Source of the DNA: Coraliomargaritaceae bacterium
GTDB taxonomy: Bacteria; Verrucomicrobiota; Verrucomicrobiia; Opitutales; Coraliomargaritaceae
Assembly: GCA_965656495.1 (NCBI GenBank)
Contig: CBFHKU010000001.1
Span: 50,781-114,780 of the forward strand
Direction: 5' to 3'
DNA: 64,000 bases
In this document: positions 1,628 to 59,396 of the stretch, piece after piece
How the letters are laid out: each line of letters opens with the position of its first letter
Position numbering within the stretch: the stretch's first letter is position 1
Position numbers and translations under genes: made by a program
Notes under the pieces: model-generated
Seen by the model: only the letters and a program-made list of their open reading frames with translations
Told to the model about the DNA's origin: nothing
The model's database searches: none

Positions 1628-1643
1628 CCGCTTGCTGGATACA

Positions 1644-2012
1644 GTGGAAGCGGCAATCCTGCCGCTTTGCCTGTACGGCTTGGGTTGGAAAGCGACAGGA
1701 GTGTCGCTTCTACGGTATGGGTTGTATCTTGTGGAAGCGGCAATCCTGCCGCTTTGCTTGTACGGCTTGGGTTGGAAAGCGACAAGAGTGTCGCTTCTAC
1801 GGTATAGGCTGTATTTGGTGGAAGCGGCAATCCTGCCGCTTTGGTTGTACGGCTTGGGTTGGAAAGCGACAAGAGTGTCGCTTCTACGGTATGGGTTGTA
1901 GCTTGTGGAAGCGGCAATCCTGCCGCTTTGGCTGTACGGCTTGGGTTGAAAAGCGACAGGAGTGTCGCTTCCACGGCCGGTTGCTCGAAAGCGACAAGAG
2001 TGTCGCTTCCAC
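1644..2012. repeat. Tandem array of inverted REP pairs (BIME/REPIN-like), 87-bp period x4 plus one extra REP
   Basis: GTGGAAGCGGCAATCCTGCCGCTTT at 1644, 1731, 1818 and 1905, each followed by an inverted GT(A/G)GAAGCGACACTC(C/T)TGTCGCTTT; extra inverted copy at 1988-2012. Confidence 0.92.
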
Positions 2013-2139
2013 GGCCGGTGGTTGAACATCGAACGTTGAAGGGGAGTGAGATTAAGATTAGGATTAAGAATAAGATTAAGAGAGGGTGGTTCCAACTAAC
2101 AACTAACAACCACCACCACCAACTAACAACCACCCTCAA
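2013..2139. repeat. Micro-repeat modules (7-bp GAACATC/CAACTAA and 6-bp GATTAA types)
   Basis: 1988-2110 matches 50847-50969 with about 9 mismatches in 123 bp. Confidence 0.9.
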
Positions 2140-23708: not shown

Positions 23709-23723
23709 GGGGAGGGGGTTATA

Positions 23724-24851
23724 TGGTGGGAAAGTATGAAGGTGGGAAAGTGGGAAGGTGGGGGAACGTCGAACATTGAACATCGAACAACTGCGTAGTC
23801 TCTGTGGTGAATTTGGCTTTCCAACTAACAACTTTCAACCCCATAGCTCTGCCGGAATATTCACCACGGAGGCGGGGAGAGCACGGAGTGAAGCTTGGAC
23901 GTTGAATCTTTAATGAAAATCTCTGTGCACTTGGTGCCTTTGTGGTGAGTTCAAAAGGAGTTATTAGTTGAAGGTTGTTAGTCGGGATTAGTCTTACTCA
24001 TACTCTTAATCTCAATAAGAAAAGTATTGTATATCGTGGAAGCGGCAATCCTGCCGCTTATTTAGTGATTGGAACCACGAATGGAGTTTAGGTGGGAAAG
24101 TATGAAGGTGAAAAGGTGGAAAGGTGATGGGCGTTGTTGGTTGATCGCTGAAAAATCGAACTTGTTTCACTATACTGTGTTCTTTGTGGTGAATAATAAA
24201 CCACGAATGGAGTTCAAGGTGTGAAAGCGGGAAGGTTGGGAACTACGACAGAGGCTGGATACCGTGGAAGCGGCAATCCTGCCGCTTTGCCTGTGCTTGG
24301 AACCACAAAAGACACGAAAAGCACGAATGGGGAGGTTGGCGAACTTCCAACGTTCAATGAACAACTTACAATCCCATAACTCTGCCTTGAGGCCAGCTTA
24401 GCTGGCGACCGCTGATGGGCGCTTATTTTCGCTAATCTTAATAAGAAAAGGGTTGTATTACGTGGAAGCGGCAATCGTGCCGCTTTGGAATCAAGGTTTT
24501 GTTTTCACCACCGAGGCGCGGAGAACACGAAGAATAAATGGTGGGAAGGTTGGGGAACATCGAACATTGAACATCGAACGTTGAAGGGGAACCACGAATA
24601 GACACGAATGGACGCGAATGGGGAAGGTTGGGGAACATCGAACATCGAACGTTGAAGGGGGATTAATTGGTGGGAAAGTGGGAAAGTATGAAGGTGGGAA
24701 GGTTGGGGAACATCGAACATTGAACATCGAACATCGAACTTTGAAATGTTCAGCTTAACGACTCCGTGCTCTTGGTGCCTCGGTGGTGAATTTGGATTTC
24801 CAACCAACAACATTCAACTAACAACTTTCAACTGCGTAGCTTCTGTGGTGA
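23724..24851. repeat. Intergenic mosaic of REP and micro-repeat modules (cluster B)
   Basis: REPs at 24036, 24264 and 24462; GTGGGAAA/GTATGAAG 8-mers; GAACATC 7-mers; TCACCACGGAG-type and AACCACGAAT-type triplets; CTTAAT 6-mers. Confidence 0.9.
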
Positions 24852-24911
24852 GTTTGAAGGGTGCTGCGATGCTTGCAATTCCTAGGAATTGGGACATATT
24901 TATAGCTCTTA

Positions 24912-43087: not shown

Positions 43088-44062
43088 ATATTGAACGTTG
43101 AAGAGGTTGTTCGTTGATGGTTGTTAGTTGGGATTACTCTTAATCTTATTCTTAATCCTAATCTTACTCTTAGGGACGTTGAACCGCGTATTTTTAACCA
43201 CGAATGGACACGAATGGGCACGAATGGGAGGTGGGAGAACTTCCAACATTCAACTAACAACATATAACTCCACACTCCTAATCTTACTCTTAATAAGAAA
43301 AGTGTTGTATTACGTGGAAGCGGCAATCCTGCCGCTTTGGAATCAAGGTTTTGTTTTCACCACCGTGGCGCGGAGAACACGGAGATTAAATGGTGGGAAA
43401 GTGGGAAGGTTGAAGAACTTCGAACATTGAACATCGAACATCGAACGTTGAAGGGAATTTGGTGGTGGGAAAGTATGAAGGTGGGAAGGTATGAAAGTTG
43501 AAGTTCGGCGTTCGAGGTTCGATGTTCAGTGTTCGATGTTGGACGTTTATCCGGTGCTCTGCCCTGAGGCCAGCTTAGCTGGCGACCGCTGATGGGCGCT
43601 TATTTTCGCTAATCCTTAAAATGGAACTATTAGTGTTTATAAGCTAGAATGGGGTTGGCGTTGTAGGTTGTTAGATGGGATCAGTCTTAATCTTAATCTT
43701 ATTCTTACTCTTAGGAACGTTGAACCGCGTATTTTTAACCACGAATGGACACGAATGGGCACGAATGGGAGGTGGGAGAACTTCCAACATTCAACTAACA
43801 ACATATAACTCCACACTCCTAATCTTACTCTTAATAAGAAAAGTGTTGTATTACGTGGAAGCGGCAATCCTGCCGCTTTGGAATCAAGGTTTTGTTTTCA
43901 CCACCGTGGCGCGGAGAACACGGAGATTAAATGGTGGGAAAGTGGGAAGGTTGGAAAGTAGGAATGTTTGAAATATTCAACTTAACCACTTTGTGTCCTT
44001 TGTGCCTCAGTGGTGAGTTCGAAGGGGAGTAAGATTAAGATTAGGATTAAGAGTAAGATTAA
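43072..44062. repeat. Intergenic mosaic (cluster C) containing an exact 237-bp direct repeat
   Basis: 43176-43412 identical to 43717-43953; REPs at 43314 and 43855; same micro-repeat modules as clusters A, B and D. Confidence 0.92.
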
Positions 44063-44080
44063 AAGGAGGGAGGGGTGCTG

Positions 44081-50361: not shown

Positions 50362-50366
50362 GGGGA

Positions 50367-50990
50367 GTTGTTCGTTGAAGGTTGTTAGTTGTTCGTTGGG
50401 ATTACTTCTACTCTTAATCTTATTCTTAATCCTAATCTTACTCTTAATAAGAGGTAATATTCACCACGGAGGCGCGGAGAGCACGGAGATTAAATGGTGG
50501 GAAAGTATGAAGGTTGGGATCAGTCTTAATCATAATCTTGCTCTTAATATCGTGGAAGCGACACTCTTGTCGCTTTGCTTGGGCGGCTTGTGAAGGAACC
50601 ACGAAAAGTAAGAAAAGGGTGTTGGGGTCACTGACTTGTTACCATGGGCCCGGCATAGCCGGGAACCACTAATCTTCACTAATAGACACTAATGGGGAAG
50701 GGGTAATGGTGGGAAAGTGGGAAGGCGTATAGGTGGGAAGGTATGAAAGTGGGAAAGTGGGAAGGTTGGGATCAGTCTTACTCTTATTCTTAATCATAAT
50801 CTTAATCACGTGGAAGCGACAATCCTGTCGCTTTGCTTGTTGCTGGAAAGCGACAGGATTGTCGCTTCCACGGCCGGTGGTTGAAGGTCGAACGTTGAGG
50901 GGGAGTAAGATTAAGATTAGGATTAAGAATAAGATTAAGAGATGGTGGTTCCAACGAACAACGAACAACGTTCAACTAACAACCACTAAC
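50367..50990. repeat. Intergenic mosaic (cluster D) bounded by about 80-bp imperfect inverted ends
   Basis: 50367-50443 is reverse-complementary to 50903-50983 (30-bp perfect core); REP at 50552; perfect inverted REP pair at 50810-50871. Confidence 0.92.
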
Positions 50991-51024
50991 CCCATACTTC
51001 TGTTCCTCTGCTGCTTTGCGTTAC

Positions 51025-55780: not shown

Positions 55781-58700
55781 ATGCGTAAAAAACACAAAAA
55801 GGGAATAATTTGGTTTATTAGTTTTATTTTTTATCAGGCTGTACAGGGGGTACCGGTTGGGCATGCGGACATTGCGCTGACAGTGACAAACACTGCGGTA
55901 GCAATACCGGTATTATTGAATGATGAGGGCAGTTCGGGCGGGGTTTTGGAGTTGGCAGCGATTGAGACGGACCCGCAGCACGGCACGCTTAGCTTTGATA
56001 GTGATGGGGTGGTTTATACGCCGAACGATGGTTTTGAGGGAATCGATCGCTTTAGTTACACTTTGGTGGAGGTGGTGCAAGGGGTGGAGAGTGAGGGTGT
56101 TGCAGTGGCGGTGGAGGTGGCGGTGAATGAGGCCTTGGATGTGGAGGCGACGCGGGATGCTTTGCTGGATGGGGTGAATGGTATCTATAGTGGGGGTTTG
56201 CCGACTCCGATTTATTCCTATGGGCCGAGTTCACTGGTAGTGACGCGTTATGGCGCGGAGTTGGATTCGGGTGCGATGGTGGTGGCTTCGACGTTGGGGG
56301 CAGGCCGGGTGGTAGCGGTTCCGTATGGGATGCCGGATATTGAATGGCACAAGGATAAGGCGGAGAGTGAAGTATTTTTTAAAAATATGCTGAAGTGGTT
56401 GCAGGGTGGGAGTGTGGATAAATCGGTGCGCATAAAAACGCGTATTGGACAGATACGGGATTGGTTAGTGAGGGAAGGGTATACAAATGTTACGCATATC
56501 AATGGAAATTTTACGGCTGCGTTGGTGGAAGATACGGATTTAATTTTAGGGCATATCGGTACTGGGGTTAGTGCGAGTGGGGTGGCTGCAATTGTGGAGG
56601 CGTTGTCGAATGGAATGGGTTTATACGTAGCAGAGTTTGGATTGGGTTATGACTGGTGGTGGAGCCGAGAGTTGTGGGAAGTGCCGATCAATCAAGTTTT
56701 GGAGTATAGTGGGGTGATTTATGCGAAGGATTGGTATAAAGCGGAAAAAATTTATGCGATTGAACGCCCGAGTGAGAATACGGGGTACTTGTCTTTTGAG
56801 TCGCAGTTGGCGGTTGTCGAGGATTCGGCGAGCGCAACGGTTGAGGACAAGGCGCATACGATGGATTGTATGCCGGTGTTGTTGCGTGGGTTGGATTTGA
56901 ATTCATTGATGCGTGCTCGGTTGATCGCTTCGTCAAAAGCGGGTTATCAGAGTTTGATGCCGAGTCGTACGAATCCGATTGATGATGCTTTTGATAAGTT
57001 TTTGCTGGAGATGGAATCGGATGTTTTGCAACGCGAGGGGATCGATGAAATCGAGAAGCATCGGATGGCGGATACGTGGTATGGCGCGGTTCCGGATGAT
57101 GCGGATCGTAGTCATAAAGTGGTGGAGTTGGATTTGGAACGGGCGCGTTGGCGTCCGCTGGGGATGTATGCGCCTCCGGGTGAGGTGGTGACTCTGGAGT
57201 TTCCGGCGGAGTTGGTGGGTCGGGGGTATCGGGTTTTGGTGAGTCCGCATGCGGATGATATAACGCGGCGTGCGGTGTGGTACCGGATTCCGGAGGTGCA
57301 ACGTAGTTATGCGATGGATACAAGCACGCTGGAAGTGGGTTCTGCTTTTGGAGGTAGTTTATTTGTGGATTTGGGTGAAACGATTCCGGGAGGAGGAACG
57401 GTTCAAGTAGGAGTGAGCGGAGCGGTGGAGCAGGCGTATTTTATTTTAGGGAAGCATCGGAATTCGGACTGGAACACGGAATTAAAGCATCGACCTGCGC
57501 CGTATGGGATTATTGAAGGGCCGAGTTTCATATTGCATGATCGGATGGATCTGGATCCGTATGCGAAGGGTAAGGATTTGGTGGATGCGGAACATTTGGC
57601 GGGTTTTTGGAACCGTATGGTGGAGATGGAGGATTGGTTGAATACCAAATTTGAGAATGGGCGGACGTATGCGGAGTTGATGAACCGGGACTACCAAATT
57701 TCGGCGGGGTATGCGCATGCGGGTTATCCGTATCAGGTGGAATGGAATTGGGTGCCGGATCCCTTTGATGTGGAGTTTCTTCGTAAACGGGGTGCGTGGG
57801 GAGACTTCCACGAGGTGGGTCATAATCATCAAGATGGTTGGTGGACGCGAACGATGGAAACAGAGGTGACGGTGAATGTTTTTTCAAATTATATTATGGA
57901 AGCTTTAGTGACGGATTCAACGGAGTGGTCGGTTGTGCCGGCACAAGTCTGGAGTCGAGCGTTGGGGGCCCATGAAGCCGGGGAAAGTTATGAGGCGATG
58001 GATGTGTGGGAGCGTCTCTGTTTTTATCTAATCCTGGCGGACCAATTTGGCTGGGAGGCGTTTCATGAATTTTATGGGAGTTATCGAGCGGACAATAAGG
58101 ATAATCCCGATGCCCTGCCGAGTGGGGATGCGGAGGAGCTGGATCAGGTTTTGACGCGGTTCTCAAGGATTGTTGGGCGCGACATTTCTCCGTTTATGAA
58201 TGATTATGGTATGTTTCCATCAACTGCGGCGAAGGATGCGGTGAGTGATTTAGAGGGATGGAACCCGTTCGATTTATATGTGGTGCCGGATGCCTTGAAT
58301 CCAGAAATTGGGAGTACGATTCAGGTGCATGTGTATGTCCCTGAAGCGACTACAAGCGTAAGTTTAGAAGTGGATGGGGTTCCTGTAGCGCTCAATGCAG
58401 TTTCGTCAAAACACTATAGTTGTGATTTGGTTTGCGATACCTTGGGTGCGGTGATGTTGGAGGCGGTTTTGGATAACGGACTTAAGGAAACGCAAACCGT
58501 GACGGTGGTTGCGGTGGATGTGGATGTGGATGACGATGGGATGACGGATACCTGGGAAGCGGCGCATGATTTGAATACTCTATGGGATGATACCGCGTTG
58601 GATTGGGATAAGGACGGGCTCAGTAATCTTGAGGAATTTATTGCAGGGAGTGATCCGCAAGACTTGGGTTCTTTTTTTAAGACGACCCTTGAAAATATGG

Positions 58701-58894
58701 ACGGAACAACACTCTCGTTGAGTTGCCCAAGCATTGCAGGACGCTCGTATCAATTATACCGCAGTGATGATTTGATAGATTGGGTGCCGTATGGGGCTGC
58801 GCAAAATTCAAACCCCCCAAAGAATAGCTTTGCGATACCGATGGATCCCTCCGAGGGAGATAAGTTTTTTTACCGCATTGAGGTGAGTCAGTGA
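55781..58894 (+). CDS. Secreted M60-family (enhancin-like) metallopeptidase with N-terminal Ig-like domain and C-terminal DxDxDG repeats
   Basis: Signal peptide; VLLND...PQHG...YTPNDGFEGIDRFSY; GMYAPPGE; FHEVGHN plus EVTVN; DVDDDGMTDTWE, DWDKDGLSNLEE. Confidence 0.85.
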   Translation: MRKKHKKGIIWFISFIFYQAVQGVPVGHADIALTVTNTAVAIPVLLNDEGSSGGVLELAAIETDPQHGTLSFDSDGVVYTPNDGFEGIDRFSYTLVEVVQGVESEGVAVAVEVAVNEALDVEATRDALLDGVNGIYSGGLPTPIYSYGPSSLVVTRYGAELDSGAMVVASTLGAGRVVAVPYGMPDIEWHKDKAESEVFFKNMLKWLQGGSVDKSVRIKTRIGQIRDWLVREGYTNVTHINGNFTAALVEDTDLILGHIGTGVSASGVAAIVEALSNGMGLYVAEFGLGYDWWWSRELWEVPINQVLEYSGVIYAKDWYKAEKIYAIERPSENTGYLSFESQLAVVEDSASATVEDKAHTMDCMPVLLRGLDLNSLMRARLIASSKAGYQSLMPSRTNPIDDAFDKFLLEMESDVLQREGIDEIEKHRMADTWYGAVPDDADRSHKVVELDLERARWRPLGMYAPPGEVVTLEFPAELVGRGYRVLVSPHADDITRRAVWYRIPEVQRSYAMDTSTLEVGSAFGGSLFVDLGETIPGGGTVQVGVSGAVEQAYFILGKHRNSDWNTELKHRPAPYGIIEGPSFILHDRMDLDPYAKGKDLVDAEHLAGFWNRMVEMEDWLNTKFENGRTYAELMNRDYQISAGYAHAGYPYQVEWNWVPDPFDVEFLRKRGAWGDFHEVGHNHQDGWWTRTMETEVTVNVFSNYIMEALVTDSTEWSVVPAQVWSRALGAHEAGESYEAMDVWERLCFYLILADQFGWEAFHEFYGSYRADNKDNPDALPSGDAEELDQVLTRFSRIVGRDISPFMNDYGMFPSTAAKDAVSDLEGWNPFDLYVVPDALNPEIGSTIQVHVYVPEATTSVSLEVDGVPVALNAVSSKHYSCDLVCDTLGAVMLEAVLDNGLKETQTVTVVAVDVDVDDDGMTDTWEAAHDLNTLWDDTALDWDKDGLSNLEEFIAGSDPQDLGSFFKTTLENMDGTTLSLSCPSIAGRSYQLYRSDDLIDWVPYGAAQNSNPPKNSFAIPMDPSEGDKFFYRIEVSQ

Positions 58895-59067: not shown

Positions 59068-59086
<19 letters not shown>
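58908..59086. repeat. 70-bp exact direct repeat containing the 3' 19 nt of tRNA-Ser
   Basis: 58908-58977 = 59017-59086. Confidence 0.92.

Positions 59087-59396
<310 letters not shown>

What the first reader, a model, noticed from the sequence alone, without database searches (positions are those of the whole stretch)
23709..24911. Intergenic mosaics assembled from a shared vocabulary of different micro-repeat modules (best candidate for an undescribed system)
Seen: this 1.2 kb non-coding tract, and those at 1628-2139, 43088-44080 and 50362-51000, are not one repeat family. They are strings of about 20-35 bp modules, each with its own period: (a) REP palindrome GTGGAAGCG(G/A)CA-N4-TG(C/T)CGCTT; (b) 6-mers CTTAAT/CTTACT; (c) 7-mers GAACATC/GAACATT and CAACTAA; (d) 8-mers GTGGGAAA/GTATGAAG; (e) TCACCACGGAGGCGCGGAGAGCACGGAG-type triplets (23861, 24505, 43357, 43898, 50461; inverted at 23921, 24762, 43989); (f) AACCACGAATGGACACGAAT-type 10-mer triplets (24590, 43196, 43737) with variants at 24407, 43584 and 50664. 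The modules recur in shuffled order and are joined by short linkers. Inference: these are non-autonomous sites of several trans-acting factors that pile up at the same hotspots, or a modular array of protein-binding sites. From memory (unverified), similar short tandem tracts flank small four-helix-bundle and GxxExxY genes in PVC and Bacteroidota genomes. No such gene, and no RAYT, is in this window.
Basis: partly seen in the sequence, partly recalled or inferred. Interest (0 to 1): 0.85.

Follow-up and report, generated by a model that had tools for sequence, protein, structure and literature searches.

The report
Stacked relic arms of gene cassettes
The patchwork DNA between these genes is built from gene-less copies of the short repeats that elsewhere bracket three kinds of small genes (a four-helix-bundle protein, a predicted nuclease called GxxExxY, and a REP transposase), stacked in a preferred order and mostly pointing along the inferred direction of chromosome replication; it is likely selfish DNA, and it gives a testable handle on two widespread gene families of unknown function.

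Summary
The mosaics are real and genome-wide: 553 modules, 41 tracts with three or more types. The order is not shuffled; it follows a strong, partly nested grammar. Almost every module is decoded. The 6-, 7- and 8-mers are inverted end-arms of four-helix-bundle (PF05635) gene cassettes. The 9- and 10-mers are arms of GxxExxY (PF13366) cassettes. The palindrome is the REP of a RAYT gene. These genes lie elsewhere in this genome or, for the GAACATC 7-mer, in a close relative. The CAACTAA 7-mer is assigned only by likeness. One site (leuB-alaS) shows an intact cassette, deleted forms, an empty hairpin, a single arm and a swap between families across eight relatives. Orthologous gaps are empty or carry other strings. 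Left arms face the inferred leading strand in 32 of 36 untied tracts and ignore gene direction. Mobility, protein binding and the cause of the polarity are inferred, not shown. This scan has reported both cassette types on other DNA many times. I found them in no paper. The new points here are the full decoding, the decay series and the replication polarity.

The parts
23709..24911 (.). Focal mosaic tract between divergent esterase and nfeD genes; 19 called modules
23726..23758 (+). 8-mer left arm (four-helix-bundle cassette type of G000:C3:150245); further copies at 24092, 24219, 24670
23769..23791 (+). GAACATC-type 7-mer left arm (brackets a PF05635 gene in relative G006); further copies at 24553, 24631, 24706
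23821..23833 (-). CAACTAA-type 7-mer arm; opposite orientation at 23973; cognate gene assigned only by likeness to the 7-mer arms of G000:C1:370544
23861..23948 (+). Empty 9-mer cassette: left arm, short spacer, inverted right arm; folds as one hairpin (z -6.1); GxxExxY arm type of G000:C8:4745
23993..24016 (+). 6-mer left arm (four-helix-bundle clade of G000:C3:105065), followed by a REP
24036..24060 (+). REP with GTGG foot (RAYT of G000:C9:69018); further copies at 24264 and 24462
24392..24434 (+). Additional module: short palindrome plus 10-mer variant triplet; 18 copies in the genome, second window copy near 43568
24505..24532 (+). 9-mer left arm; inverted right arm at 24762-24789
24590..24619 (+). 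10-mer left arm of the GxxExxY cassette (in intact cassettes it holds the start codon); one-unit stubs at 24073 and 24199
1628..2139 (.). REP doublet array (9 REPs) plus shared tail block, between convergent sdhB and a UvrD-type helicase gene
43088..44080 (.). Mosaic tract between convergent ruvX and sulP; holds a 269-bp direct repeat at 98.5% identity; the two genes abut in G001 and G002
50362..51000 (.). Mosaic tract between convergent mntR-like gene and pnp
50770..50945 (+). Nested unit: 6-mer arms enclosing a REP doublet; folds at -90 kcal/mol against -43 for shuffles; 7 tracts in the genome hold such a nest

Best explanation
The tracts are pile-ups of gene-less end-arms from three kinds of small gene cassettes, which are likely selfish elements: 6-, 7- and 8-base arms that bracket four-helix-bundle (PF05635) genes, 9- and 10-base arms that bracket GxxExxY genes with a predicted PD-(D/E)xK nuclease fold, and REP palindromes that bracket a RAYT gene. 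Step 1 (shown by comparison): a cassette of left arm, gene and inverted right arm sits between the stop and start codons of host genes, and it decays to an empty hairpin or a single arm. Step 2 (inferred): empty cassettes and REPs keep landing in or beside one another, because such gaps are neutral and already hairpin-rich; this gives nested units such as 7-mer [6-mer [REP doublet]]. Step 3 (block sharing shown, process inferred): multi-module blocks of 100-400 bp are then duplicated and exchanged between gaps, with switches inside or at the ends of shared modules. Step 4 (pattern shown, cause inferred): this copying is tied to the replication fork, most likely as single-strand cut-and-join on the lagging-strand template by the resident RAYT, carrying neighbouring arms as passengers. 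That would explain why single arms face one way. The tracts probably do little for the host beyond incidental RNA hairpins between genes.
For: Cognate genes in the own genome: 4 PF05635, 5 PF13366, 2 PF01797, with the window's modules as inverted arms on their flanks. Class sample, best 30 loci per family: inverted arms in 27 of 30 GxxExxY and 26 of 30 four-helix loci, against 1 of 100 ordinary genes. Periods were 8-10 in 36 of 38 periodic GxxExxY flanks (none 7), and 7 in 50 of 52 four-helix flanks. All 20 loci with 6-base arms lie in one 100/100 clade of 29 proteins; none among the 61 outside it. The 10-mer clade in 79 named genome loci of many phyla has a left arm in 68, a right arm in 68 and both in 61. 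Its 74 upstream neighbours fall into 42 clusters, 68 on the same strand. Catalytic D75 and K87 are invariant in 120 homologues; the nearest fold is Cas4 Sso0001, Z 8.0, rmsd 3.1, 98 aligned. leuB-alaS junction: intact in G005; intact plus two deleted copies in G000; internally deleted in G003; empty hairpin in G004; right arm only in G001; decayed stub in G002; no arm in G010; replaced by a GAACATC-armed PF05635 gene in G006. In G009 the closest RAYT homologue (55%) is flanked by the same REP. Stand-alone empty 6-mer hairpins occur in G012, which lacks this REP. Nesting runs left-then-right in 9 of 9 tracts for the 6-mer and 6 of 7 for the 8-mer. Polarity: 32 against 4 tracts, 4 ties, 1 dropped as unclear. 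9 of 10 tandem gaps whose genes lie on the lagging strand follow the leading strand rather than the genes. An extra module not used to set the rule follows it 18 of 18 times. 35 of 41 tracts hold a REP. Lagging-strand coupling of IS200/IS605-type HUH enzymes, and RAYT cleavage 5' and 3' of REPs including distant sites, are in PMC6006769 and PMC8266576 (passages).
Against: No movement was observed; there is no binding, cleavage or RNA evidence, and the reads were DNA contigs only. REPs themselves (14:11 tracts) and 9-mers (5:6) show no polarity, and 6 of 41 tracts lack a REP. No close RAYT was found in G003, G005 or G006, although they hold 13-29 REPs; these assemblies are fragmented. The leading strand is inferred from GC skew on an unclosed genome. 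Tracts share blocks, so they are not independent and the p-values (2e-6, 1.6e-5) overstate. Only 6 of 9 intact cassette genes are on the leading strand. The 8-mer link is weak beyond close kin: among 30 homologues, periods were 7 in 15, 8 in 6, 9 in 3, 12 in 1 and none in 5. The CAACTAA 7-mer has no exact cognate gene. G000:C3:59905 has only a poor right arm. Called modules cover only 40-61% of the window tracts. Loci were chosen by best score and kin share arms by descent.
Confidence: 0.62

Rival explanations
1. Same origin of the vocabulary, but the arms are passive debris. Mosaics grow only by host recombination, gene conversion and slippage between shared micro-repeats. The polarity comes from orientation-dependent loss (hairpin or G-rich tracts deleted on one template) or from spread of one or two founder blocks.
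For: Branch points lie inside or at the ends of modules, at short shared words. There is a 269-bp 98.5% repeat within 43088-44080. Relative to G003, G000 has an extra block between two copies of a 16-bp piece of the 6-mer array (by eye). Tract GC skew is +0.14 against +0.09 in other gaps. Single-orientation arms dominate (10-mer 34:3, 8-mer 38:7).
Against: The polar 6-mer and 10-mer left arms are C-rich, against the skew. New tracts appear in gaps that are empty in congeners, which needs a seeding step without prior homology. Stand-alone empty hairpins are dispersed in G012.
Confidence: 0.22
2. The tracts are modular arrays of binding sites with a host role, such as transcript stability, termination or nucleoid organisation along the replichore.
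For: Strong hairpins; enrichment in convergent gaps, 13 of 181 against 17 of 1083 tandem gaps; replichore polarity recalls KOPS and Chi (recalled, not tested).
Against: Orthologous gaps are empty or differ in close relatives. Orientation ignores gene direction. Tracts are absent from long parts of the genome. Enrichment between convergent genes is also what neutral insertions give.
Confidence: 0.08
3. The arrays are written anew by a polymerase, for example a reverse transcriptase helped by the Avd-like four-helix protein, jumping between short templates.
For: PF05635 is homologous to the DGR accessory protein Avd (PMC10053308, passages). The strings look like one-directional paths through shared words.
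Against: The only PF00078 match lies in an island beside a resolvase, on a contig with no cassette gene. Polarity follows the replichore and not transcription. Linkers are shared between sites, as expected from copying.
Confidence: 0.05
4. Decayed copies of one IS or MITE.
For: One nested unit recurs in 7 tracts; 46 alignments of 150 bp or more exist among and within tracts.
Against: No tract is covered 80% or more by another (median 24%, maximum 68%). Each module exists alone with its own gene.
Confidence: 0.03

Closest known systems
REP / REPIN / BIME with RAYT (TnpA-REP) (PMC3733652, PMC8266576, PMC6006769; passages read)
   Same: Module (a) is a GTGG/GTAG-footed REP forming doublets, with a RAYT gene flanked by the same REPs; GTGG-footed REPs are reported for Opitutus terrae; one gene serves many gene-less copies.
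   Different: Most of the mosaic is non-REP tandem arms of period 6-10 that belong to unrelated gene families without an HUH motif. Single arms are polar to the inferred replichore.
ORF-bearing 23S rRNA intervening sequences with S23p / PF05635 (PMC4990558; passages read)
   Same: A four-helix-bundle gene inside an inverted-repeat stem, with sporadic distribution and unknown mobility.
   Different: Here the cassettes sit between protein-coding genes, have tandem-unit arms and leave many gene-less relics; RNase III excision is untested.
Intergenic heptamer repeats: TAACTGA of Beggiatoaceae (PMC4679880), GGGAATC of Xanthomonas and Nostoc (PMC4692102); passages read
   Same: Short tandem 7-mers between genes, sometimes as inverted pairs, origin unexplained.
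   Different: In the passages I read no cognate gene is named; Xanthomonas repeats show no leading/lagging preference; here 6-, 8-, 9- and 10-mers are also present and tied to gene clades.
Neisseria mosaic intergenic regions and MITEs (one passage in PMC3733652; otherwise recalled)
   Same: Several repeat families interleaved in large gaps.
   Different: No single terminal-repeat element or target duplication defines these tracts; the parts trace to PF05635 and PF13366 cassettes.

Membership tests
REP/REPIN-RAYT (module a only) | 20-40 bp palindrome with GTAG-type foot, many extragenic copies | tested here: met
   25-bp unit, 166 exact pattern copies, 0 for the reversed control; 178 of 186 model hits intergenic
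REP/REPIN-RAYT (module a only) | Inverted doublets forming hairpins | tested here: met
   60 head-to-head pairs against 22.6 expected; fold z -10.7
REP/REPIN-RAYT (module a only) | Y1/HUH gene flanked by the same REP | tested here: met
   G000:C9:69018; G009:C34 homologue with four copies around it
REP/REPIN-RAYT (module a only) | Passes the NCBIfam RAYT cut-off | tested here: inconclusive
   A 92-aa piece scored 47 bits against a cut-off of 80, with RAYT the best match; full length not scanned
REP/REPIN-RAYT (module a only) | REP-dependent single-strand cleavage | not testable with these tools
   needs purified protein
BIME (whole tract) | Mosaic made of REPs and REP-specific linkers | tested here: not met
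   367 of 553 modules are non-REP arms; 6 of 41 tracts have no REP
Single IS/MITE | Copies align end to end with common termini | tested here: not met
   0 of 41 tracts covered 80% or more by another
23S rRNA IVS with S23p | PF05635 ORF inside an inverted-repeat stem | tested here: met
   cognate genes outside the window
23S rRNA IVS with S23p | Located in a 23S rRNA helix | tested here: not met
   the four G000 genes lie among protein-coding genes; Rfam finds only a tRNA in the window
23S rRNA IVS with S23p | Excised from RNA by RNase III | not testable with these tools
   no raw RNA reads
Diversity-generating retroelement | Avd gene beside a reverse transcriptase and template repeat | tested here: not met
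   single RT match on C13; PF05635 genes on C1 and C3
PD-(D/E)xK nuclease (GxxExxY protein) | Fold and catalytic PD...(D/E)xK residues | tested here: met
   P74, D75, K87 in 120 of 120, D85 in 118 of 120; model pLDDT 93, best match Cas4 Z 8.0
PD-(D/E)xK nuclease (GxxExxY protein) | Nuclease activity | not testable with these tools
   needs an assay

The most novel reading that the evidence does not exclude
Four-helix-bundle and GxxExxY genes are the engines of an undescribed class of tiny mobile cassettes in which each protein clade reads its own repeat period (6, 7-8 or 8-10 bases) in the arms. Their gene-less arms and REPs form composite elements that are assembled and spread at the replication fork. 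This would explain the long-noted excess of bacterial heptamer repeats and add non-transposase mobilisers alongside RAYT.
Probability: 0.35. Interest if true: 0.88.

Novelty: new variant of a known kind. Interest (0 to 1): 0.62.

Why it matters
It ties unexplained intergenic micro-repeats to two very common gene families of unknown function: PF13366 in 90 of 151 and PF05635 in 112 of 151 genomes of this class. It gives matched protein and DNA pairs for direct binding, cleavage and mobility tests. The replication polarity, if it holds in a closed genome, points to a fork-linked mechanism. In practice these tracts break short-read assemblies (relatives' contigs end in them) and change quickly between close relatives.

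Tried and rejected
First module scan had thresholds too low for the REP and 9-mer models; redone, and only one search counts are used. Gene calls are from my own dicodon model, so 'intergenic' is approximate. Gene-linked polarity was tested and not found (for example 10-mer 10:13, 8-mer 12:13 in tandem gaps). A reverse-transcriptase link was not supported. ORFs overlapping the tracts have no Pfam match (5 of 5). Rfam finds nothing in the tracts. Reads: 4 of 24 listed runs were laid, all DNA contigs. Their joints and a 7-base and a 3-base insertion in the tract may come from other mosaic sites, so they are not used as evidence. Fold search shows only a general PD-(D/E)xK fold; absence of other families is not evidence. 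The branch-point scan gave no single cut motif. Replichore pattern in G012 was only looked at by eye. One four-helix locus (L141) was dropped as too short; loci under 3 kb were left out of the specificity count. output was cut in the middle; its totals were visible. Eight paper searches found no description of repeat-armed PF05635 or PF13366 cassettes; subscription journals are mostly not covered, and I read no supplements. No complex prediction was run.

Full report
Setting. The window is G000:C1:50781-114780 of a 2.06-Mb, 31-contig genome. It is probably a marine Opitutales (Coraliomargaritaceae-like) bacterium; this is inferred from labels of the closest homologues and from marine metagenome runs. 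The focal tract lies between divergent esterase and nfeD genes. The other three lie between convergent housekeeping genes.

Observation. Seven weight-matrix models find 553 modules, 519 outside called genes, in 94 tracts. 41 tracts with three or more types hold 429 modules, against a mean of 79 under random placement. 27 tracts hold five or more types, against 0.6. The tracts are not copies of one element: best coverage by another tract has a median of 24% and a maximum of 68%. They do share multi-module blocks of 100-400 bp at about 82-98% identity. The order is not random: 6-mer then REP 36 times against 8.9, CAACTAA-type 7-mer then 6-mer 19 against 5.4, 7-mer then 10-mer 12 against 3.4, 10-mer then 6-mer 12 against 3.6, 8-mer then 6-mer 13 against 4.7; none of 1000 shuffles reached these. 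Where both orientations of a type occur in a tract they are nested left-then-right (6-mer 9 of 9, 8-mer 6 of 7, 9-mer 8 of 9 untied). Seven tracts hold 6-mer arms around REPs.

Decoding the vocabulary. The genome has 4 PF05635, 5 PF13366 and 2 PF01797 genes, none in the window. Their flanks carry the modules as inverted arms: the 8-mer at C3:150269, the 6-mer at C3:105086, a related 7-mer at C1:370544, the 10-mer at C4:75196, the 9-mer at C8:4745 and the REP at C9:69024. The GAACATC 7-mer brackets a PF05635 gene in relative G006. In a class-wide sample (best 30 loci each, one of them from G000), inverted arms were found at 27 of 30 GxxExxY and 26 of 30 four-helix genes, against 1 of 100 control genes. 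Periods separate the families: 36 of 38 periodic GxxExxY flanks had period 8-10 and none 7; 50 of 52 four-helix flanks had period 7. Homologues of the 6-mer gene form a 100/100 clade of 29 with all 20 period-6 loci, and none of 61 other loci has period 6; kin share arms, so this is clustering and not proof of co-evolution. The 8-mer is a local dialect (6 of 30 homologues). The 10-mer clade spans many phyla at 61-85% identity; 61 of 79 loci have both arms, the start codon sits at a fixed place inside the left arm in most, and neighbours are diverse. The protein is predicted as a PD-(D/E)xK nuclease nearest to Cas4, with catalytic residues intact. Pfam lists its function as unknown with many transfers (PMC3424549, one table row). 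The REP occurs in 6 of 31 genomes; G009, of another genus, has it around its RAYT.

Decay and turnover. At leuB-alaS, eight genomes show an intact GxxExxY cassette (G005), an intact plus two deleted copies (G000), an internal deletion (G003), an empty hairpin (G004), a right arm alone (G001), a decayed stub (G002), no arm (G010) and replacement by a four-helix cassette with an internal stop (G006). The 993-bp ruvX-sulP gap is absent in G001 and G002, about 380 bp with another string in G005, and starts with another string in G003. Three further gaps hold different strings or different REP numbers in G006, one more differs in G003, G005 and G001, and G001 has 57-67 bp without modules at two of them. 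For the focal gap, G001 has 371 bp with one 9-mer-like module; contigs of the two closest relatives end inside or near it. In G012, which lacks this REP, 6-mer arms occur as stand-alone hairpins in most of 10 fetched places.

Polarity. Taking the leading strand from strand-balanced third-position GC skew, left arms face it in 32 tracts against 4, with 4 ties and 1 unclear. By type: 6-mer 23:3, 10-mer 21:4, 8-mer 22:4, CAACTAA-type 20:5, GAACATC-type 26:8 once its left arm is defined by G006; the 9-mer (5:6) and REP (14:11), which mostly occur as pairs, show none. All 9 tracts on negative-skew DNA flip, and 9 of 10 tandem gaps with lagging-strand genes follow the fork and not the genes. An extra module found later follows the rule 18 of 18 times. 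The 6-mer and 10-mer left arms are C-rich, so mutational skew alone does not explain it. Caveats: the genome is unclosed, tracts share blocks, and intact cassettes show no clear bias (6 of 9).

Mechanism. Shown: arm-gene pairing, decay to empty arms, nesting, block sharing, fast turnover and polarity. Inferred: that the cassettes move with help of their own proteins, that relics attract further insertions, and that RAYT carries neighbouring arms during single-strand transfer at the fork. HUH enzymes of the IS200/IS605 type use the lagging-strand template (PMC6006769, passages), and RAYT cuts on both sides of a REP, also at distant sites (PMC8266576, passages). Against this step: REPs are not polar, 6 of 41 tracts lack one, and no close RAYT was found in three REP-bearing congeners. 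Host recombination with orientation-biased loss is the main rival.

Comparison and novelty. Module (a) is an ordinary REP-RAYT system; GTGG-footed REPs are reported for Opitutus terrae (PMC3733652, passages). The four-helix cassettes resemble ORF-bearing 23S intervening sequences (PMC4990558, passages) but are not in rRNA. Heptamer repeats of unknown origin are described in PMC4679880 and PMC4692102 (passages); the latter reports no strand preference in Xanthomonas. Eight searches found no paper on repeat-armed PF05635 or PF13366 cassettes; the one GxxExxY passage I read (bioRxiv 2021.01.26.428298) is unrelated. I read no full text and no supplements. Earlier notes of this scan describe both cassette types on other DNA; they are unchecked notes and I tested the links here myself. 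A look-up for replication polarity returned nothing. Verdict: a real feature, a new variant of the REP-RAYT and BIME kind whose cassette parts seem undescribed in print; interest 0.62.

Noticed in passing
G000:C3:54925-55010 (L111) and C3:84397-84510: Empty 8-mer arm pairs lie inside called open reading frames, one in an rfbB-like gene, apparently in frame; recalls Rickettsia palindromic elements (recalled). The first folds weakly (z -1.1).
   Followed up: partly
G000:C4:74840-75890 (L105): Three tandem units of leuB end, GxxExxY cassette and alaS start; only the middle gene is whole, and the units are joined through a short hairpin-like linker.
   Followed up: partly
G000:C3:59400-60400 (L108): A four-helix gene interrupts an rfbA-like gene and is followed by a second, degenerate copy of that gene's start.
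   Followed up: no
window 1628-2139, 23709-24911, 50362-51000: These tracts lie at gene-order breaks relative to some congeners: in G005 sdhB is next to nfeD across a different mosaic; neighbours of mntR and pnp also differ. No control for rearrangement rate was run.
   Followed up: partly
G000 contigs C7, C10, C14, C15 and long parts of C2, C3, C6: Mosaic tracts are nearly absent there and dense on C1, C4 and C5; position on the chromosome is unknown.
   Followed up: no
G000:C15:9121-9630: A second RAYT-like gene with its own, different palindrome family on both sides.
   Followed up: no
G000:C8:28165, C8:35181, C1:149172: Three more GxxExxY genes with other arm dialects; C8:28165 has arrays mainly upstream.
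   Followed up: no
G000:C13:30877-35515 (L107): Island with a resolvase, a 475-aa reverse transcriptase-like gene and a polymerase-like ORF; possibly a defence or prophage remnant.
   Followed up: no
genome-wide 14-mer count: Another abundant palindrome beginning TCCCCACGCG (34 counts over both strands), which looks like a CRISPR repeat (recalled); not located.
   Followed up: no
window 59071-59158 and 55781-58894: A tRNA gene next to an M60-like peptidase gene with Ig-like domains.
   Followed up: no
L306 (G012:C1:299300-299800): In another genus, 6-mer arms also enclose other palindromes and a 9-mer-like arm, so nesting is not confined to this lineage.
   Followed up: partly
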